In this document: positions 26,945 through 32,258 of the stretch, piece by piece
How positions within the stretch are numbered: the first letter of the stretch is position 1
Layout: each line of letters starts with the position of its first letter
Source: the human T2T-CHM13v2.0 reference genome, Homo sapiens
Length of the DNA: 64,000 nt
Strand: one strand, 5' to 3'
NCBI RefSeq assembly: GCF_009914755.1
Contig: NC_060937.1
Made by a program: the position numbers and the translations under genes
The notes under the pieces: model-generated
The model's database searches: none
Seen by the model: only the letters and a program-made list of their open reading frames with translations
Told to the model about the DNA's origin: nothing

Positions 26945-28257
26945 GCCTCAAGACCTAGCACCATCTCTAGCATATGTTGTATTAATGACGTTAGATGATT
27001 GAATGACTGTTATCTCAATAATTGCCACTGATTTGACTATTTAAGCAGGTCATTTTTTCCCCCTAAATATTCCCCCCGTGCTATACTGAAAGTCACAGAA
27101 CATCATTATTGCAGAAGAATAGCTTTCCTCAGTCAAGGCTAAATAAGTTACAGGAATTGACAGCGAACACCTCCCATTCAAGTTAGAATGAACACTATTT
27201 GGTCTTAGACACATAAATGTTCAGACAAGAGGTTTCCATTTAGAAGAAGCCAACCAATGATGAGTTCAGAAAACATTCTTGTTAACACACTCAAAAATTG
27301 CAATAAAAAATGGAGCATCACCTGAAAATGGTAAACTTTTTAAACAAATAGAACGATATGAGGATAAAGGGATGTTTCTAATTAGATTCCCTTTTCTAAA
27401 ATCTTTCACTTTCCTTACTAGTCTGATGCTCACAGACATAAGGTCAGTGTGATATTTTTGATAACATACGTAGGTCTGCAGAGTTCATAGCACTGCAGAC
27501 TTGGGAAGATTTTACATGTCCAGTGCATGGCCCAGAGGCAGCAGTATTTATTTTAGCCAGTAACAAACATGATAAATGATGTGCCACCCTCCGTCACTAC
27601 TGGTCACTGGAAGTGCTGGCTGACCATCAGCCCAGAGCTCAATTCCCACAGGTTCCCTGCCAAACTATTTGAATAAACCTAGGCAAGTTTACAATTTCTG
27701 CTTTGGCTGAAAAACTTCTTTCACTTGGCAGTCTAAATACATTTCAGAGCGTTTGAGGATGAACTGTTGGTTTCTATGCTTAAATAGTAATTTCAGGTAT
27801 TTTTAAAACATCTTCCTTGAAATATAATTCACATACCATACAATTTTTCCATTGCTTTTAATATATTTACAGACTTGTGTAATCATCACCACAACCAATT
27901 TTCTAATATTTGCATTACTCCAAAAAAATCCTCTGTACCCCCAAATCATCCCACCTCGCCTACTCCTAAGCAAGGACTAATGATTCCCCTTCCCTGTTAG
28001 GTGGGCTGTTTTCATTATCATTTGCTTGTTTATTGATTGGTGACATGGCCAGTCTATTTTAATGAAGTCTATTTCCCTGCAGTGTCTCTCCTAAGTAAGG
28101 CACAGCTTTGGACATTCATAGTTACTTGGGACAACAGTTTTAGCAGGGCTCTCTTTCTCCTTTCCTGATCTCTCTGTTAAGCTGCCTGGCTCATTTGATA
28201 TCACATCCAAATTATCAGCTGATTGCTCTATTGTTTTGGACAATGCCCTGAAGCATA

Positions 28258-28500
28258 CCAAAATGTGTCTGGAATTGGTGGGTTCTTGGTCTTACTGACT
28301 TTAAGAATGAAGTTGCGGACTTTTGCGGTGAGTATTACAGCTTTTAAGGTGGCGCGTCTGGAGTTTGTTCTTTCTGATGTTTGGATGTGTTTGGAATTTC
28401 TTCTTTCTGGTAGGTTTGTGGTCTTGCTGGCTTAGGAGTGAAGCTGCAGACTTTCGTGGTGAGTGTTACAGCTTTTAAGGCAGCGTATCTGGAGTTGTTC
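28258..28500 (-). mobile_element. ERV9/LTR12 U5 fragment plus PBS-edge bases
   Basis: tgtgtctggaattggtgggttcttggtc is the reverse LTR12 3' terminus; two U5 subrepeats (gtgagtRttacagc); preceded by ccaaaa. Confidence 0.92.
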
Positions 28501-28549
28501 ATAAATTGCTCTGTAGCATTATCTGATTAAACCCATGTAGTATTAGTTT

Positions 28550-28873
28550 TATTTCTTGTTTTGTTTTCTTTTGGTTTTTGTTTTGGTTTTTTGAGATAGA
28601 GTCCTGCTCTGTCACCCAGGCTGGAGTGTGGTGGCGTGATCTTGGCTCACTGCAACCTTTGCCTCCTGGGTTCAAGCGATTCCCTTGCCTCAGCCTCCTG
28701 AGTAGCTGGAATTACAAGTGTCCATCACCAGCTAGGCTAATTTTTGTATTCTTAGTAGAGATGGGGTTTCACCATGTTGGCCAGGCTGGTCTCTAATTCT
28801 TGACCTCAGGTGATCCACCTGCCCTGGCCTCCCAAAGTGCTGGGATTACAGGTATGAGCCACCATACCCAGCT
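28550..28873 (-). mobile_element. AluS, antisense
   Basis: Complete Alu with T-rich tail; degenerate TSD tgtagtattagtttt / tgcagtagtagtttt. Confidence 0.96.
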
Positions 28874-29014
28874 GCAGTAGTAGTTTTTAAAGACAGTTTT
28901 TGAGGTTTATGGAGATCCCAGGAGGGCACTTCTTATGTACTTCTTTCTCTTTTTCTGTCTGGTGAACTAGCTGGCCTATGGTTAAACTTTTTGCTGTCAC
29001 TTAAGAAGAGCTAT

Positions 29015-29130
29015 TTGTTTTCGCTGGATATGAAATTCTGGGTTGAAAATTCTTTTCTTTAAGAATGTTGAATATTGGCTCCCACTCTCTTCTAGCTTGT
29101 AGAGTTTCTGCCGAGAGATCCACTGTTAGT
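29015..29130 (-). mobile_element. Isolated young L1PA ORF1 fragment
   Basis: gctggatatgaaattctgggttgaaaattcttttctttaagaatgttgaatattgg...gccgagagatcc is close to the antisense L1PA ORF1 consensus. Confidence 0.88.
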
Positions 29131-29811
29131 ACCCTTATACTTGAACTTCACCATATTCTGTTTAAAATAAAATCAATTCCTTTGGGGGGCATTCAGATGT
29201 CCCTTTTCCTATGGATTCCCCTTTCATTTGGTTAAGATGTCTCAACCCTACTCCAGGCACTGGCTAGAGGAGTTAGCCTCTGGTCCTCCAGACTTTTTGT
29301 CTTGACTCTCCTGGCATGGGGTGCTGCCCAAAGATTGAGTTCATGTCAGGAAAATCAGAACCCCAATCTTCTTGCCAGCCATGCACAGAGTAGACACTCC
29401 ATCCTGACTGAGAGCTGGTGGGAGGAAGATAGCCACCAACCCTTTGGCAACATGCACCTGGAATATATCCTCTTCATGGAGTTGGAGAGGATGAAAAATG
29501 TTAGTGGTTTCCCCCTCCCAATAAAATATGGCAACTCTTGATCAGAAATTGTAAAGAGAAGGAACTCATCTTTTTGACAACTTGGATTGAAGTTTCTGTT
29601 AGGCTGAGCTTAGGGTAAAGAGGGAGAGTGTAGAAGGTGGCTCAAATGTTACAGACTCTCATTGTTCTGAATTTTAGTAGATTTTCTTAAATAGATGTTT
29701 CCTCATTTGCTGTATGCCATTTGGACAATTTCCACAGATTAGAGCAAAACTTCAATGTCTGTTCCAGAAGGAAGTATCATGTTGGATTTTACTGTACAAT
29801 GAAGAAATGGG

Positions 29812-30894
29812 TATTGGGGGAACCTGCCCCCAATATTTCAACGTAGGTTTTTTCTATTTTCCATAAGTGTCGGCCAGCTGAGAAATAAAAAGAGAGACAG
29901 TATAAAGAGAGGAATTTTACAGCTGGGCTGCTGGGGGTGACATCACATATTGGTAGGACCATGATGCCCACCTGAGTTTTGTATTAAGGGTTTCAAACCA
30001 GCAAGTTTTTTCTTAAGGGTTTCAAAAGGGGAGAGGGTGTAATAACAGACAGTAGGTACAAAGATCACATGCTTCAAAGGGCAAAAGGCAGAACAAAGAT
30101 CACATGCTTCGGAGGGAACAGGACAAAGGGCAAAAGCAGAACTACTGATAAGGGTCCAACAAAGATCACAAGGCAAAGGGCAAAAGCAGAATTACTGATA
30201 AGGGTCTATGTTCAGCAGTGCATGTATTGTCTTGATAAACATTTTAAACAACAGAAAACAAGGTGCGAGAGCAGAGAACTGGTCTGACCACAGATTTACC
30301 AGGGCGGAGTTTTTATCCACCCTAGTAAGCCTGAGGGTACTGCAGGAGACCAGGGCATATCTCAGTCCTTATCTCAACCACATCAGGCAGACATTCCCAG
30401 AGTGGCCATTTATAGACCTCCCCCCAGGAATGCATTCCTTCCCCAGGGTATTAATATTATTATTCCTTGCTAGGAAAAGAATTTAGCAACATCTTCCCTA
30501 CTTGCATGTCCGTTTATAGGCTCTCTGCAAGAAGAAAAGTATGGCTTTTTTTGCCCGACCCTGCAGGCAGTCAGGCCTTATGTTTATCTTCCCTTTTTCC
30601 CTAAAAATCACTGTTATTCTGTTCATTTTCAAGGTGCACTGATTTCATATTGTTCAAACACACGTTTTACAAACAATTTGTACAGTTAACATAATTATCA
30701 CAGTGGTCCTCAGGTGACATACATCCTCAGTTTATGAAGATAACAGGATTAAAAGATTAAAGTAAAGACAGGCATAAGAAATTATAAAAGTATTATTTGG
30801 GAACTGATAAATGTCCATGAAATCTTCACAATTTATGTTCCTCTGCCACGGCTCCAGCCATCCCTCCACTTGGGGTCCCTGACTTCCTGCAACA
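29812..30894 (-). mobile_element. MER11 LTR (3' LTR of HERV-K11/HML-8)
   Basis: tattgggggaacctgcccccaatatttcaacgtagg ... ggggtccctgacttcctgcaaca; polypurine tract (tctttccctttcttttt on +) follows immediately. Confidence 0.92.
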
Positions 30895-30938
30895 TCTTTC
30901 CCTTTCTTTTCATATAAATGTGCCATGGCAATGAAGGC

Positions 30939-32258
30939 TTATTCATTCTCTCGGTTTTGACGCAGGATTCTTTGACTGGTCCAGCACACTAAAAACAAGC
31001 TGATTAAACAGAGAAACATAATTCCAAAATTTACTACAGTGGAGCCCCCAACAGACTTAATCCAAGTCGTGGGGTTTGGTCCAGAAAGACTTTCTGCCAC
31101 CTGATCTAGTGCCTCAGTTCCAGGCACAATGGATAAATGAGCTTGAGAGGCTTCAAAAATTTGTTTCTTTAATTTAGTTATGTCCAAGGATAAATTATGT
31201 TCCCTACCCAGCAGGTGTCCTTTGACCATTTCCCATGAATGATCAGTCTTCTTGTAGGAATATGGTGTGATACAGAAATCAGAAGTATTCCAATCGCACT
31301 GCATTTGCATGCGATGTTTGAGACTTATTAGCTGATCTCCAAGCCAAATAACAGACTGTCTTAAATCATTAATTTGATTAGCTAATTTTTGATCAATGCC
31401 CTGTTGAGAATTCTACATTTGGGTGGAATTAGCTTGCCAATCATTAACAAAATCAGCCCTTTGAATAGGTTGGTGTAATGCCACGCCGGCGGTGGTGGCC
31501 AGTGCAGTGACTGTAATTAGGCCCATGATCACAGCGATTAAAGTGAAAACGAATCTCTTAGATCTTTTGAGAATTCGTTGTAACACTTCATTAATTAAAT
31601 GTACTGAGGGTGAAGATTCCCAAGGTCTGGGTAAAGTTACCAGTATCCAGATTCCTTCTCACTTCTCAAGCTCACACAACATTACACTTTTCCTGAAGTC
31701 AAAATGGGAGTTAACACAAGTGTATAAATGACAATTAATGCATTGGACAGTTTGATTGTTCATCCAAATTTTGATATTTCCCACTAACAGCATGTAAGAA
31801 GGCTTAACACAACTCTGTATAGGAATAGTCAGGTTGGAGGTAAACAAAGCGGAATGTTTCAATCTACATCGATACTGAGGGAGAGAAGCGGCAGTGGCAA
31901 CGCCTGATGTTCTCTACTGTAAAGAAGCAATCCGAGGTGCTCAGGAATGCCGAAGAGGTGGAGGCGCATACCTGGGTGAAGAAGAATTATCATAAGGCCA
32001 ATCAGAGTCCCATAAAGGAGGATCAGCATCTAAAAGAGGAGGAGAGTTCAAAGAGGATTTATCATGGGGTTCAGAATCACGGATGTGAGGGGCAGTAGTG
32101 GGGACAACAGACAGAAAATTTCCTCTTCCCATACTTGCAGGCCAACCATGGCAATAGCCAATTTCCAAAGTTCTGGGTGTTCTGGGCTCAGAATGGGGAA
32201 TATCATATGAGGCCTCATGGTGGGTAATGCCCTTGTGTTCTCATTTTAAGGGAAAGAA
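30939..32258 (-). pseudogene. HERV-K(HML-8) env remnant (SU C-terminal part and TM)
   Basis: Minus-strand translation gives [34 protein letters not shown] (furin site, fusion peptide), [26 protein letters not shown] and a TM anchor; in-frame TAG in STQM*NSQ plus frameshifts. Confidence 0.9.

What the first reader, a model, noticed from the sequence alone, without database searches (positions are those of the whole stretch)
28264..28500. Strand-specific APOBEC3-type hypermutation of the LTR12 fragment
Seen: in these 237 nt the + strand has no CC and no TCA, yet six CpGs survive (gcgg twice, gcgcg, ttcg, agcg). Against my recalled LTR12C consensus most changes are C>T on this strand in CC or TC context (gaagccgcgg>gaagttgcgg, gaccctcg>gacttttg, ttccttc>ttctttc twice, gaccttc>gactttc, ttcaag>tttaag, gctctta>gctttta twice, gctcagg>gcttagg). 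Knowledge: APOBEC3G edits 5'-CC and other APOBEC3s edit 5'-TC on single-stranded minus-strand cDNA, whereas neutral decay hits CpG first and on both strands. Inference: the cDNA was deaminated before capture. The CC in the upstream CCA is untouched, as expected if it was primer RNA.
Basis: partly seen in the sequence, partly recalled or inferred. Interest (0 to 1): 0.75.

Follow-up and report, generated by a model that had tools for sequence, protein, structure and literature searches.

The report
APOBEC3-edited retroviral cDNA scrap, already catalogued
A 243-base scrap of an ancient retrovirus's first DNA copy, heavily mutated by a host antiviral enzyme before it was patched into the chromosome, now supplies part of the first exon of a long non-coding RNA; the mutation pattern is real but this very element is already in a published catalogue.

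Summary
Window 28264-28500 is the last 237 nt (U5 end) of an LTR12-type LTR. The LTR sense strand is the window minus strand, so the window + strand has the polarity of retroviral minus-strand cDNA.

Against 52 genomic paralogs the piece differs at 24 columns: 20 C>T and 4 G>A, nothing else.
- C sites changed 20/51 against G sites 4/78 (p=2.7e-6).
- By 5' neighbour: CC 7/7, TC 10/23, GC 3/15, AC 0/6.
- A Hypermut-style test gives 16/25 against 4/26 (p=4e-4).
- Each T allele is shared by 0-1 of 23 independently chosen copies.

So APOBEC3-type editing before insertion is supported.

It is not new. Knisbacher & Levanon 2016 (PMC4866542, Suppl. data S8) list this element (hg19 chr13:78629135-78629374, minus strand) with 15 edited sites. 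Elements with the same site spacing appear in their chimp and gorilla tracks.

I did not find the insertion path in that paper:
- The insert is CCAAAA plus 237 nt. CCA is the 3' end of the tRNA-Arg primer and AAA is the first DNA made.
- It sits cleanly in an old repeat, flanked by a 3-4 nt duplication.
- It is therefore the 5' end of minus-strand DNA, joined without normal LTR-end processing.
- It supplies the last 64 nt and the splice donor of OBI1-AS1 exon 1.

The parts
28258..28260 (+). CCA: the last three bases of the tRNA-Arg primer (complement of the first three bases of the primer-binding site), retained at the 5' end of the inserted minus-strand DNA
   Evidence: 15 proviral 5' LTR junctions read ...GGTC(A/G)CCAAAA|TGTGTC. 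The 15 nt before CCA are the 3' end of a tRNA-Arg(CCG) gene. In the window only CCA (perhaps ACCA) is present and what lies further left is the old host repeat.
28261..28263 (+). AAA: the 3-nt spacer between primer-binding site and LTR end, that is the first three bases of minus-strand DNA synthesis
   Evidence: Identical spacer in all 16 proviral junctions inspected: L009, L010, the 13 non-window hits, and L093.
28264..28500 (-). Last 237 nt (U5 end) of an LTR12-type LTR, with the LTR sense strand on the window minus strand. Carries 20 C>T and 4 G>A on the window + strand relative to paralogs.
   Evidence: Gapless match over 1-237 to 39 non-self genomic copies at 88-91%. Homology stops at 28264 and at 28500-28502. 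Difference table. In paralogs the AATAAA complement lies about 353 nt and a TATA-like word about 439 nt from the LTR end, so the piece lies wholly in U5; the reading of those two motifs is recalled, not tested.
28255..28257 (+). ATA: left copy of the duplicated target bases (CATA if the C at 28500 is counted as target)
   Evidence: 11 of 24 copies of the host repeat read CATAAATT uninterrupted at this point and none has an insertion (alignments). The window reads CATA, then the 243-nt insert, then ATAAATT.
28501..28503 (+). ATA: right copy of the duplicated target bases. The A or AT could instead be microhomology with the LTR, since 6 of 29 paralogs continue with AT here.
27950..28257 (+). Old interspersed repeat (family not named) that was the target. 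It resumes at 28501 and runs to about 28545. It contains the OBI1-AS1 start site at 28118.
   Evidence: 38 non-self matches at 66-93% identity, the long ones at 66-76%. Continuity across the insertion point.
28118..28327 (+). OBI1-AS1 exon 1 (RefSeq NR_047001.1, from the hub's table). Its last 64 nt (28264-28327) come from the antisense LTR piece.
   Evidence: Hub annotation plus the coordinates of the piece.
28328..28333 (+). GTGAGT splice donor of exon 1. It is native to the antisense strand of unedited LTR12 copies. A second GTGAGT from the next repeat unit is at 28459-28464.
   Evidence: None of the 24 differing columns falls in 28328-28333; the nearest is G>A at 28334.
28575..28872 (-). 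Alu in antisense orientation, used as the local control for post-insertion mutation

Best explanation
What it is: a 243-base insert (28258-28500) that is the 5'-terminal part of the minus-strand DNA of an LTR12/HERV9-type retrovirus. It consists of the last three bases (CCA) of the tRNA-Arg primer, the 3-base spacer, and the first 237 bases of U5.

The editing (shown): while this DNA was single-stranded, APOBEC3-type cytidine deaminases converted about 40% of its cytosines to uracil. Every CC site and most CTC/TTC sites were hit. These read today as C>T on the window + strand.

The insertion (shown): the fragment was joined into an old host repeat in the germ line of an ancestor of human, chimp and gorilla. 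It shows none of the marks of normal integration. No LTR terminus abuts the target, six extra bases lie beyond the U5 CA, and the other end is a break inside U5. The target is otherwise intact, with a 3-4 nt duplication.

The joining step (inferred): most likely capture by end joining at a staggered chromosome break.

What stays open: whether the molecule was a stalled strong-stop intermediate or the end piece of a longer, fragmented cDNA.

Afterwards: the antisense U5 sequence, which natively carries GTGAGT, became the end and the splice donor of exon 1 of the lncRNA OBI1-AS1.
For: Editing:
- 20 C>T against 4 G>A and no other change, relative to 52 paralogs.
- C sites 20/51 against G sites 4/78, p=2.7e-6; non-CpG 11/36 against 3/63, p=7e-4.
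- Context: CC 7/7, TC 10/23, GC 3/15, AC 0/6; NCC 7/7, CTC 6/6, TTC 4/11, GTC 0/5; Hypermut-style GRD 16/25 against control 4/26, p=4e-4.
- CpG cytosines follow the same rule (CCG 2/2, TCG 5/6, GCG 2/7), with 9 C>T against 1 G>A at CpG.
- Alleles are private: shared by 0-1 of 23 unbiased copies, and the best non-self match in the genome is 91%.
- CC is absent from 28260 to 28531, while the flanks hold 11 and 15 CC per 237 nt.
- Independent published call: the same element with 15 edited sites, 13 of which coincide with mine.

Polarity and origin at the primer:
- Proviral copies read tRNA-Arg 3' end, CCA, AAA, TGTGTC.
- Of 14 exact genome hits to ACCAAAATGTGTC..., the window is the only one not followed by the rest of the primer-binding site.

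Clean insertion: 11 of 24 host-repeat copies read CATAAATT uninterrupted where the window has CATA, the 243 nt, then ATAAATT.

Not integrase-type: 31 of 52 family members have a 4-nt duplication directly abutting TG...CA ends.

Age: elements with the same site spacing are in the chimp and gorilla tracks.

Background read in passages of a review (PMC3391693): APOBEC3G blocks reverse-transcriptase elongation and disturbs tRNA primer removal.
Against: - The yardstick is the majority base of present-day paralogs, not the true source copy.
- The piece lies +146 to +382 from the OBI1-AS1 start on the non-template strand. The Alu further into intron 1 also shows more C>T than G>A at non-CpG sites (10/79 against 2/66, p=0.066), so a local bias may add a little.
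- Three non-CpG G>A changes (28334, 28396, 28412) exceed the 0-2 seen in the 23 control copies and are unexplained.
- The piece ends 237 nt into U5. It does not reach the 5' end of R, which I estimate at about 410 nt from the LTR end using motifs, so it is not a full-length strong-stop DNA.
- The duplication may be 4 nt (CATA), the family's own target-duplication length, which leaves room for an aberrant integrase-mediated joining.
- No outgroup with an empty site was available here. The empty site is inferred from paralogous repeats only.
Confidence: 0.7

Rival explanations
1. The C>T changes arose after insertion through a local strand-asymmetric process. One candidate is deamination of the exposed non-template strand just downstream of the OBI1-AS1 start site. 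Another is a germ-line APOBEC3 cluster acting on chromosomal DNA.
For: The piece lies +146 to +382 from the annotated start site, on the non-template strand (hub table). The Alu at 28575-28872 shows non-CpG C>T 10/79 against G>A 2/66, p=0.066 (the first attempt gave 10 against 2). Germ-line clusters with APOBEC3G context are proposed by PMC4864454, of which I saw only the search listing and abstract. A C>T excess near 5' ends of genes is something I recall from the literature; I did not look it up.
Against: The ten Alu changes have no YC preference (5' base A3, G3, T1, C3), and other Alu copies reach 7. In the LTR piece 39% of cytosines changed with a strict context. The CC-free span, 28260-28531, covers the whole insert and overruns it on one side only, by 31 nt into the right flank; the left flank keeps CCA and GCCCTG within 20 nt of the junction. 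No T>C or A>G accompanies the changes.
Confidence: 0.06
2. The T alleles are ordinary: either inherited from an LTR12 subfamily or a source copy that carried them, or the product of CpG decay.
For: In the similarity-ranked set A some CpG-site T alleles are shared by up to 13 of 29 copies.
Against: In set B, chosen with an unedited query, each allele is shared by 0-1 of 23 copies. Eleven of the 20 changes are not at CpG. At CpG the strands differ 9 to 1. No genomic copy is closer than 91%.
Confidence: 0.01
3. A complete edited provirus or LTR integrated normally here, and later deletions left only U5 plus six bases.
For: Deletions inside proviruses are common, and the retained CCAAAA shows the source was a 5' LTR to primer-binding-site junction.
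Against: Both deletions would have had to end exactly at the target boundaries, because the host repeat continues without loss on both sides and keeps a 3-4 nt duplication. Normal family members have TG...CA ends abutting a 4-nt duplication (31 of 52), and neither is present here.
Confidence: 0.03
4. The molecule and the editing are as in the best explanation, but the joining was done by the viral integrase acting on an aberrant short double-stranded cDNA with unprocessed ends, not by host end joining.
For: If the C at 28500 is counted as target, the duplication is CATA, 4 nt. That is the length of the family's own target duplication (31 of 52 copies).
Against: Only ATA is unambiguous, because all 29 paralogs have C at the position matching 28500. 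No CA-3' end abuts the target on either side, and six bases beyond the U5 CA were kept.
Confidence: 0.12

Closest known systems
APOBEC-edited ERV1 elements in the catalogue of Knisbacher & Levanon, Mol Biol Evol 2016 (PMC4866542)
   Same: It is the same object. Suppl. data S8, track 'Human LTR ERV1', rows 29405-29419, lists hg19 chr13:78629135-78629374 (minus strand) with 15 clustered edited sites. With one constant offset, 13 of these fall on my C>T sites. The paper also reports that edited elements are preferentially exonised in human (26 elements; passages read).
   Different: The main text has no occurrence of 'strong-stop', 'primer binding', 'fragment', 'double-strand break' or 'lncRNA'. 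The element's coordinates occur only in the S8 site list within the supplementary text held. That file was cut when stored and file 1 was not searchable. So the primer remnant, the clean non-integrase insertion and the OBI1-AS1 exon are not described there as far as I could see.
G-to-A hypermutated endogenous proviruses, for example HERV-K(HML-2) and murine IAPE (PMC2531183, listing and abstract only); strand-bias survey of human ERVs (PMC6955324, passages)
   Same: Sense-strand G>A excess with GG/GA context, private to single copies and fixed in the germ line.
   Different: Those are proviruses or LTRs that completed reverse transcription and were integrated. This is a 243-nt terminal cDNA piece that was not.
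Capture of retrotransposon cDNA at chromosome breaks: yeast Ty1 (Moore & Haber 1996; Teng, Kim & Gabriel 1996) and fragment capture in mammalian cells. These are recalled; my two searches did not bring up these papers.
   Same: A reverse-transcript fragment joined into a break without integrase-type ends, with short or no duplication.
   Different: This is a fixed primate germ-line event. It retains the 3' CCA of the primer and carries heavy APOBEC3 editing.
APOBEC3G effects on HIV-1 reverse transcription: block of elongation and aberrant tRNA primer removal (Mbisa et al. 2007 and Luo et al. 2007, as cited in the review PMC3391693; passages read)
   Same: Predicts exactly this kind of product: short, heavily deaminated minus-strand DNA with primer bases left on its 5' end, and a poor substrate for integration.
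   Different: Shown experimentally for HIV-1, not for a gamma-like ERV. Whether it applies here is inference.

Membership tests
LTR12 / HERV9 (ERV9) long terminal repeat | Sequence homology to the family's LTR over the whole piece | tested here: met
Gapless 1-237 match to 39 non-self copies at 88-91% (3265 first-look candidates, 40 scored). Only 4 of 237 columns differ once C>T is set aside. The published list files the element under 'LTR ERV1'. No repeat library was run, so the subfamily (for example LTR12C) is not tested.
LTR12 / HERV9 (ERV9) long terminal repeat | Primer-binding site for tRNA-Arg following the 5' LTR | tested here: met
   Met for the family: proviral copies carry 18 nt matching the 3' end of a tRNA-Arg(CCG) gene plus CCA. 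In the window only CCA remains.
Normally integrated LTR or provirus | TG...CA termini directly abutting a 4-nt target duplication | tested here: not met
   31 of 52 family copies show this. In the window six extra bases lie between the U5 terminus and the target, and the other end is internal to U5.
APOBEC3-hypermutated retroelement | Excess of G>A on the element's sense strand over C>T | tested here: met
   20 against 4; per site 20/51 against 4/78, p=2.7e-6; non-CpG p=7e-4.
APOBEC3-hypermutated retroelement | GG/GA (minus-strand CC/TC) target context against control contexts | tested here: met
   YC 17/30 against RC 3/21, p=0.003. GRD 16/25 against control 4/26, p=4e-4.
APOBEC3-hypermutated retroelement | Changes private to the copy and confined to the element, not shared with flanks | tested here: inconclusive
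   Private: 0-1 of 23 copies. Flanks keep CC. But the neighbouring Alu shows a weak context-free C>T excess (p=0.066), and the unique flanks could not be polarised without outgroups.
Minus-strand strong-stop DNA | 5' end at the 3' end of the tRNA primer | tested here: met
   The insert begins with CCA, then AAA, exactly at the primer/DNA junction defined by proviral copies and the tRNA-Arg gene.
Minus-strand strong-stop DNA | 3' end at the 5' end of R (cap site) | tested here: not met
   The piece stops 237 nt into U5. In paralogs the poly(A)-signal complement is at about 353 nt and a TATA-like word at about 439 nt from the LTR end. It is at most an incomplete or trimmed strong-stop product.
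cDNA or filler-DNA capture at a chromosome break (end joining) | Clean insertion with intact target, short duplication or microhomology, no element-encoded end processing | tested here: met
   (11 of 24 host-repeat copies read CATAAATT exactly; 0 of 24 has an insert). The break itself and the repair pathway cannot be tested with these tools.

The most novel reading that the evidence does not exclude
This is a germ-line fossil of an aborted infection or retrotransposition. A stalled, APOBEC3-saturated minus-strand strong-stop cDNA, still carrying the CCA of its tRNA-Arg primer, was captured at a chromosome break instead of being degraded, and was later exapted as exon and splice donor of a lncRNA. 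If so, restriction by APOBEC3 would itself feed short edited cDNA scraps into primate genomes. Such U5-plus-primer fragments would then form a searchable class that records restricted replication attempts.
Probability: 0.45. Interest if true: 0.55.

Novelty: already known. Interest (0 to 1): 0.3.

Why it matters
The hypermutation itself adds nothing new, because the element is in a 2016 catalogue. Two things are worth keeping.

First, the anatomy. Few fixed primate insertions can be tied to a defined reverse-transcription intermediate. This one starts within three bases of the site where DNA synthesis begins and was not integrated in the normal way. That links APOBEC3 restriction (stalled synthesis, faulty primer removal) to a heritable genomic product. 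It also suggests a simple census: ERV U5 or R-U5 pieces that begin at the primer junction.

Second, the piece illustrates the published trend that edited elements are often exonised. Here that happens through a splice donor native to the antisense LTR, not through one made by editing.

Tried and rejected
- ARAGORN finds no tRNA in 27900-28600, so no more of the primer than CCA is present.
- A search for further fragments of the same build found none. The pattern with a non-PBS base at -3 gave 2 hits, the window and a provirus with a mutated primer-binding site. The pattern with ACCA gave 14 hits, 13 of them proviral. Only exact matches to these two patterns were searched, so diverged or differently trimmed fragments would be missed.
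- The first Alu control, with 22 Alu copies that happened to lie in fetched loci, was too heterogeneous at 71-84% identity. I repeated it with the 20 nearest Alus.
- The first script for target duplications had an offset bug and its output is void. It was redone.
- Orangutan ortholog: the two parts of the supplementary list I read showed only + strand rows and no chr13 row near the locus. This is unresolved and is not evidence of absence.
- Five of six loci holding the 15-nt primer-binding-site word gave no tRNA with ARAGORN. I did not look further at what they are.
- Considered and rejected: AID (context WRC, but purine-preceded cytosines are the spared ones here); editing of the sense RNA or plus strand (wrong strand); L1-mediated insertion (no poly(A), no long duplication).

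Full report
WHAT IS THERE

Window 28264-28500 reads, on the + strand, as the reverse complement of the 3' end of an LTR12-type LTR. It begins TGTGTC, the complement of the LTR's terminal ...GACACA. A search of the window's own assembly gave 3265 first-look candidates. Forty were scored, and 39 non-self copies matched positions 1-237 without gaps at 88-91% identity. Homology to these copies starts at 28264 and stops at 28500-28502, whereas all 29 fetched paralogs continue into the rest of the LTR. The published list discussed below files the element under 'LTR ERV1'. No repeat library was available, so the subfamily is untested.

THE OBSERVATION

The composition claims are exact: no CC, no TCA, and six CpGs at 28316, 28326, 28353, 28355, 28455 and 28484.

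I compared the piece column by column with 29 paralogs (set A, ranked by likeness to the window). I then compared it with 23 further paralogs found with an unedited copy as query (set B), and finally with all 52. The result is the same each time. Twenty-four columns differ: 20 C>T and 4 G>A on the + strand, with no other change.

Per-site statistics:
- C sites changed 20/51 against G sites 4/78, p=2.7e-6.
- Without CpG: 11/36 against 3/63, p=7e-4.
- Within CpG: 9/15 against 1/15, p=0.005.
- By 5' neighbour: CC 7/7, TC 10/23, GC 3/15, AC 0/6. Pooled, YC 17/30 against RC 3/21, p=0.003.

Finer context and a formal test:
- NCC 7/7, CTC 6/6, TTC 4/11, GTC 0/5.
- A Hypermut-style test on the LTR sense strand gives GRD 16/25 against control 4/26, p=4e-4.
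- The CpG cytosines obey the same context rule (CCG 2/2, TCG 5/6, GCG 2/7). This explains why five of the six surviving CpGs are GCG.

The T alleles are private. Each is shared by 0-1 of the 23 set B copies, and those copies carry 0-1 non-CpG C>T each, 8 in all. In set A some CpG-site alleles are shared by up to 13 of 29, which is expected from ranking by likeness to the window plus recurrent CpG decay.

POLARITY

Two set A copies and 14 further loci are 5' LTRs of proviruses (13 non-window hits and L093). In window orientation they read ...GTCCC(A/T)TC(T/G)(G/T)GGTC(A/G)CCA, then AAA, then TGTGTC. The 15 bases before CCA are the 3' end of a tRNA-Arg(CCG) gene on contig 17.

So the window + strand has the polarity of minus-strand cDNA. 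The order is primer 3' end, then the first DNA made, then U5. C>T on this strand is the classical APOBEC3 footprint, equivalent to G>A on the viral sense strand.

ALREADY IN PRINT

Knisbacher & Levanon 2016 (PMC4866542) screened 123 genomes for edited LTR elements. I read passages of the main text, and rows and parts of supplementary file 2.

- Human. In Suppl. data S8, inside the track 'Edited Sites - Human LTR ERV1' (rows 28762-32013), rows 29405-29419 list element chr13:78629135-78629374, minus strand, with 15 sites. With the single offset 78,600,872 the element maps to window 28263-28502. Thirteen of the 15 sites fall on my C>T sites. The other two (28308, 28323) are T in the window and in the majority of my paralogs, so they presumably reflect the partner copy used in that study. 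That is my inference.
- Chimp. The ERV1 track holds a 240-nt minus-strand element, chr13:78030273-78030512. Seven of the nine sites visible in the part I read lie at the same offsets as human sites, and an eighth falls on one of my own C>T sites (28486).
- Gorilla. The ERV1 track holds chr13:60825963-60826196, minus strand. All eight visible sites have the spacing of my C>T sites.
- Conclusion. The insert and its edits predate the human-gorilla split.
- Orangutan. I could not resolve this.

The strand-bias survey of Ito et al. (PMC6955324, passages) shows that such signatures are general in human ERVs.

HOW IT GOT THERE

Left of the LTR end the window has CCAAAA. This is the same six bases that separate the LTR end from the body of the primer-binding site in proviruses. 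The rest of the primer-binding site is missing.

Among 14 exact genome hits to ACCAAAATGTGTC... the window is the only one not continued by that site. A second pattern found only the window and one provirus with a mutated site.

The flank 27950-28257 belongs to an old repeat with 38 non-self matches, the long ones at 66-76% identity. I inspected 24 copies. Eleven read CATAAATT uninterrupted at the point in question, most others read one- or two-base variants, two could not be placed by my anchor, and none has an insertion. The window reads CATA, then CCAAAA plus 237 nt, then ATAAATT.

The event was therefore a clean 243-nt insertion with ATA duplicated. The duplication is CATA if the C at 28500 is counted as target. 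AT is ambiguous with the LTR, which continues AT in 6 of 29 paralogs.

Normal family members look different. Thirty-one of 52 have a 4-nt duplication directly abutting TG...CA ends. A provirus followed by two deletions that each end exactly at the target boundary is very unlikely.

The firm inference is that the insert is the 5'-terminal 240 nt of minus-strand DNA plus three primer bases, joined without LTR-end processing.

Three things remain open:
- Whether it was a stalled strong-stop DNA or the end of a longer, broken cDNA. In paralogs the poly(A)-signal complement lies at about 353 nt and a TATA-like word at about 439 nt from the LTR end, so a full strong-stop product would be about 410 nt. 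That figure is my estimate.
- Whether host end joining or an aberrant integrase reaction did the joining.
- Whether the CCA was RNA when it was joined.

The very high editing level (39% of cytosines) in a region that I recall is normally single-stranded only briefly favours a stalled intermediate. So does the reported ability of APOBEC3G to block elongation and disturb primer removal (review PMC3391693, passages). Both points are inference.

CONTROLS AND WHAT SPEAKS AGAINST

The piece lies +146 to +382 from the OBI1-AS1 start on the non-template strand, so a local, post-insertion C>T bias had to be considered.

The Alu at 28575-28872 was compared with its 20 nearest genomic relatives. It shows non-CpG C>T 10/79 against G>A 2/66 (p=0.066). 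Other Alus in the set range from 0-7 against 1-6. A rougher first attempt gave 10 against 2. The direction is the same, but the ten changes have no YC preference (5' base A3, G3, T1, C3).

CC is absent from 28260 to 28531, while the flanks carry 11 and 15 CC per 237 nt. CCA and GCCCTG lie within 20 nt of the left junction.

A small local contribution to the 20 changes cannot be excluded. It cannot explain the pattern.

Two further points against: three non-CpG G>A changes remain unexplained, and 'no CC in 237 nt' alone is not rare (331 of 63,764 windows).

WHAT IT DOES NOW

By the hub's RefSeq table, exon 1 of OBI1-AS1 is 28118-28327. Its last 64 nt are the antisense LTR piece, and its donor GTGAGT at 28328 belongs to the LTR. 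The donor hexamer is unchanged relative to paralogs, since none of the 24 differing columns lies in 28328-28333. Editing therefore did not create it. A second GTGAGT from the next U5 repeat unit is at 28459. This fits the published enrichment of edited elements among exonised ones. I did not find this element's coordinates in the held part of that paper's tables other than S8. That file is cut, and file 1 was not searchable.

VERDICT

The hypermutation of this element is already known. The insertion anatomy (primer CCA, clean non-integrase insertion, exaptation as exon end and donor) is a modest addition. I did not find it in the one catalogue paper I read or in two literature searches.

Noticed in passing
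window 28118-28333 and 28459-28464: OBI1-AS1 exon 1 ends in the antisense LTR12 U5 piece and uses its native GTGAGT at 28328. A second GTGAGT from the next repeat unit lies at 28459. The start site at 28118 lies in the old host repeat, not in the LTR.
   Followed up: partly
window 28575-28872: The antisense Alu in intron 1 shows more non-CpG C>T than G>A on the non-template strand (10/79 against 2/66, p=0.066) without APOBEC context. This may be a weak transcription-linked bias near the start site.
   Followed up: partly
L002 (G000:C4:105798335-105798570) and L004 (G000:C16:90269749-90269985): Two other LTR12 copies carry 5 non-CpG C>T each on the same strand in this 237-nt stretch (YC:RC 9:1 and 4:1). 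They may be lightly edited copies. The rest of their LTRs was not examined.
   Followed up: no
window 27950-28257 and 28501 to about 28545: An unnamed old interspersed repeat with 38 non-self matches in the genome, the long ones at 66-76% identity. It served here as a stand-in for the empty site.
   Followed up: partly
L004-L052 (52 LTR12 loci): 31 of 52 copies show a 4-nt target duplication directly abutting ends that read TGTGTC... and ...TGTCACCTCTCA. LTR lengths between these ends range from 964 to 1710 nt.
   Followed up: yes
window 28334, 28396, 28412: Three non-CpG G>A changes in the piece, against 0-2 per copy in 23 control copies. Together with the absence of any T>C, A>G or transversion, this is unexplained. 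Reverse-transcriptase error or chance are possible.
   Followed up: no
L089-L092 (contig 24): Four proviral junctions on contig 24 share an identical 60-nt leader before the CCA, evidently copies of one duplicated segment.
   Followed up: no
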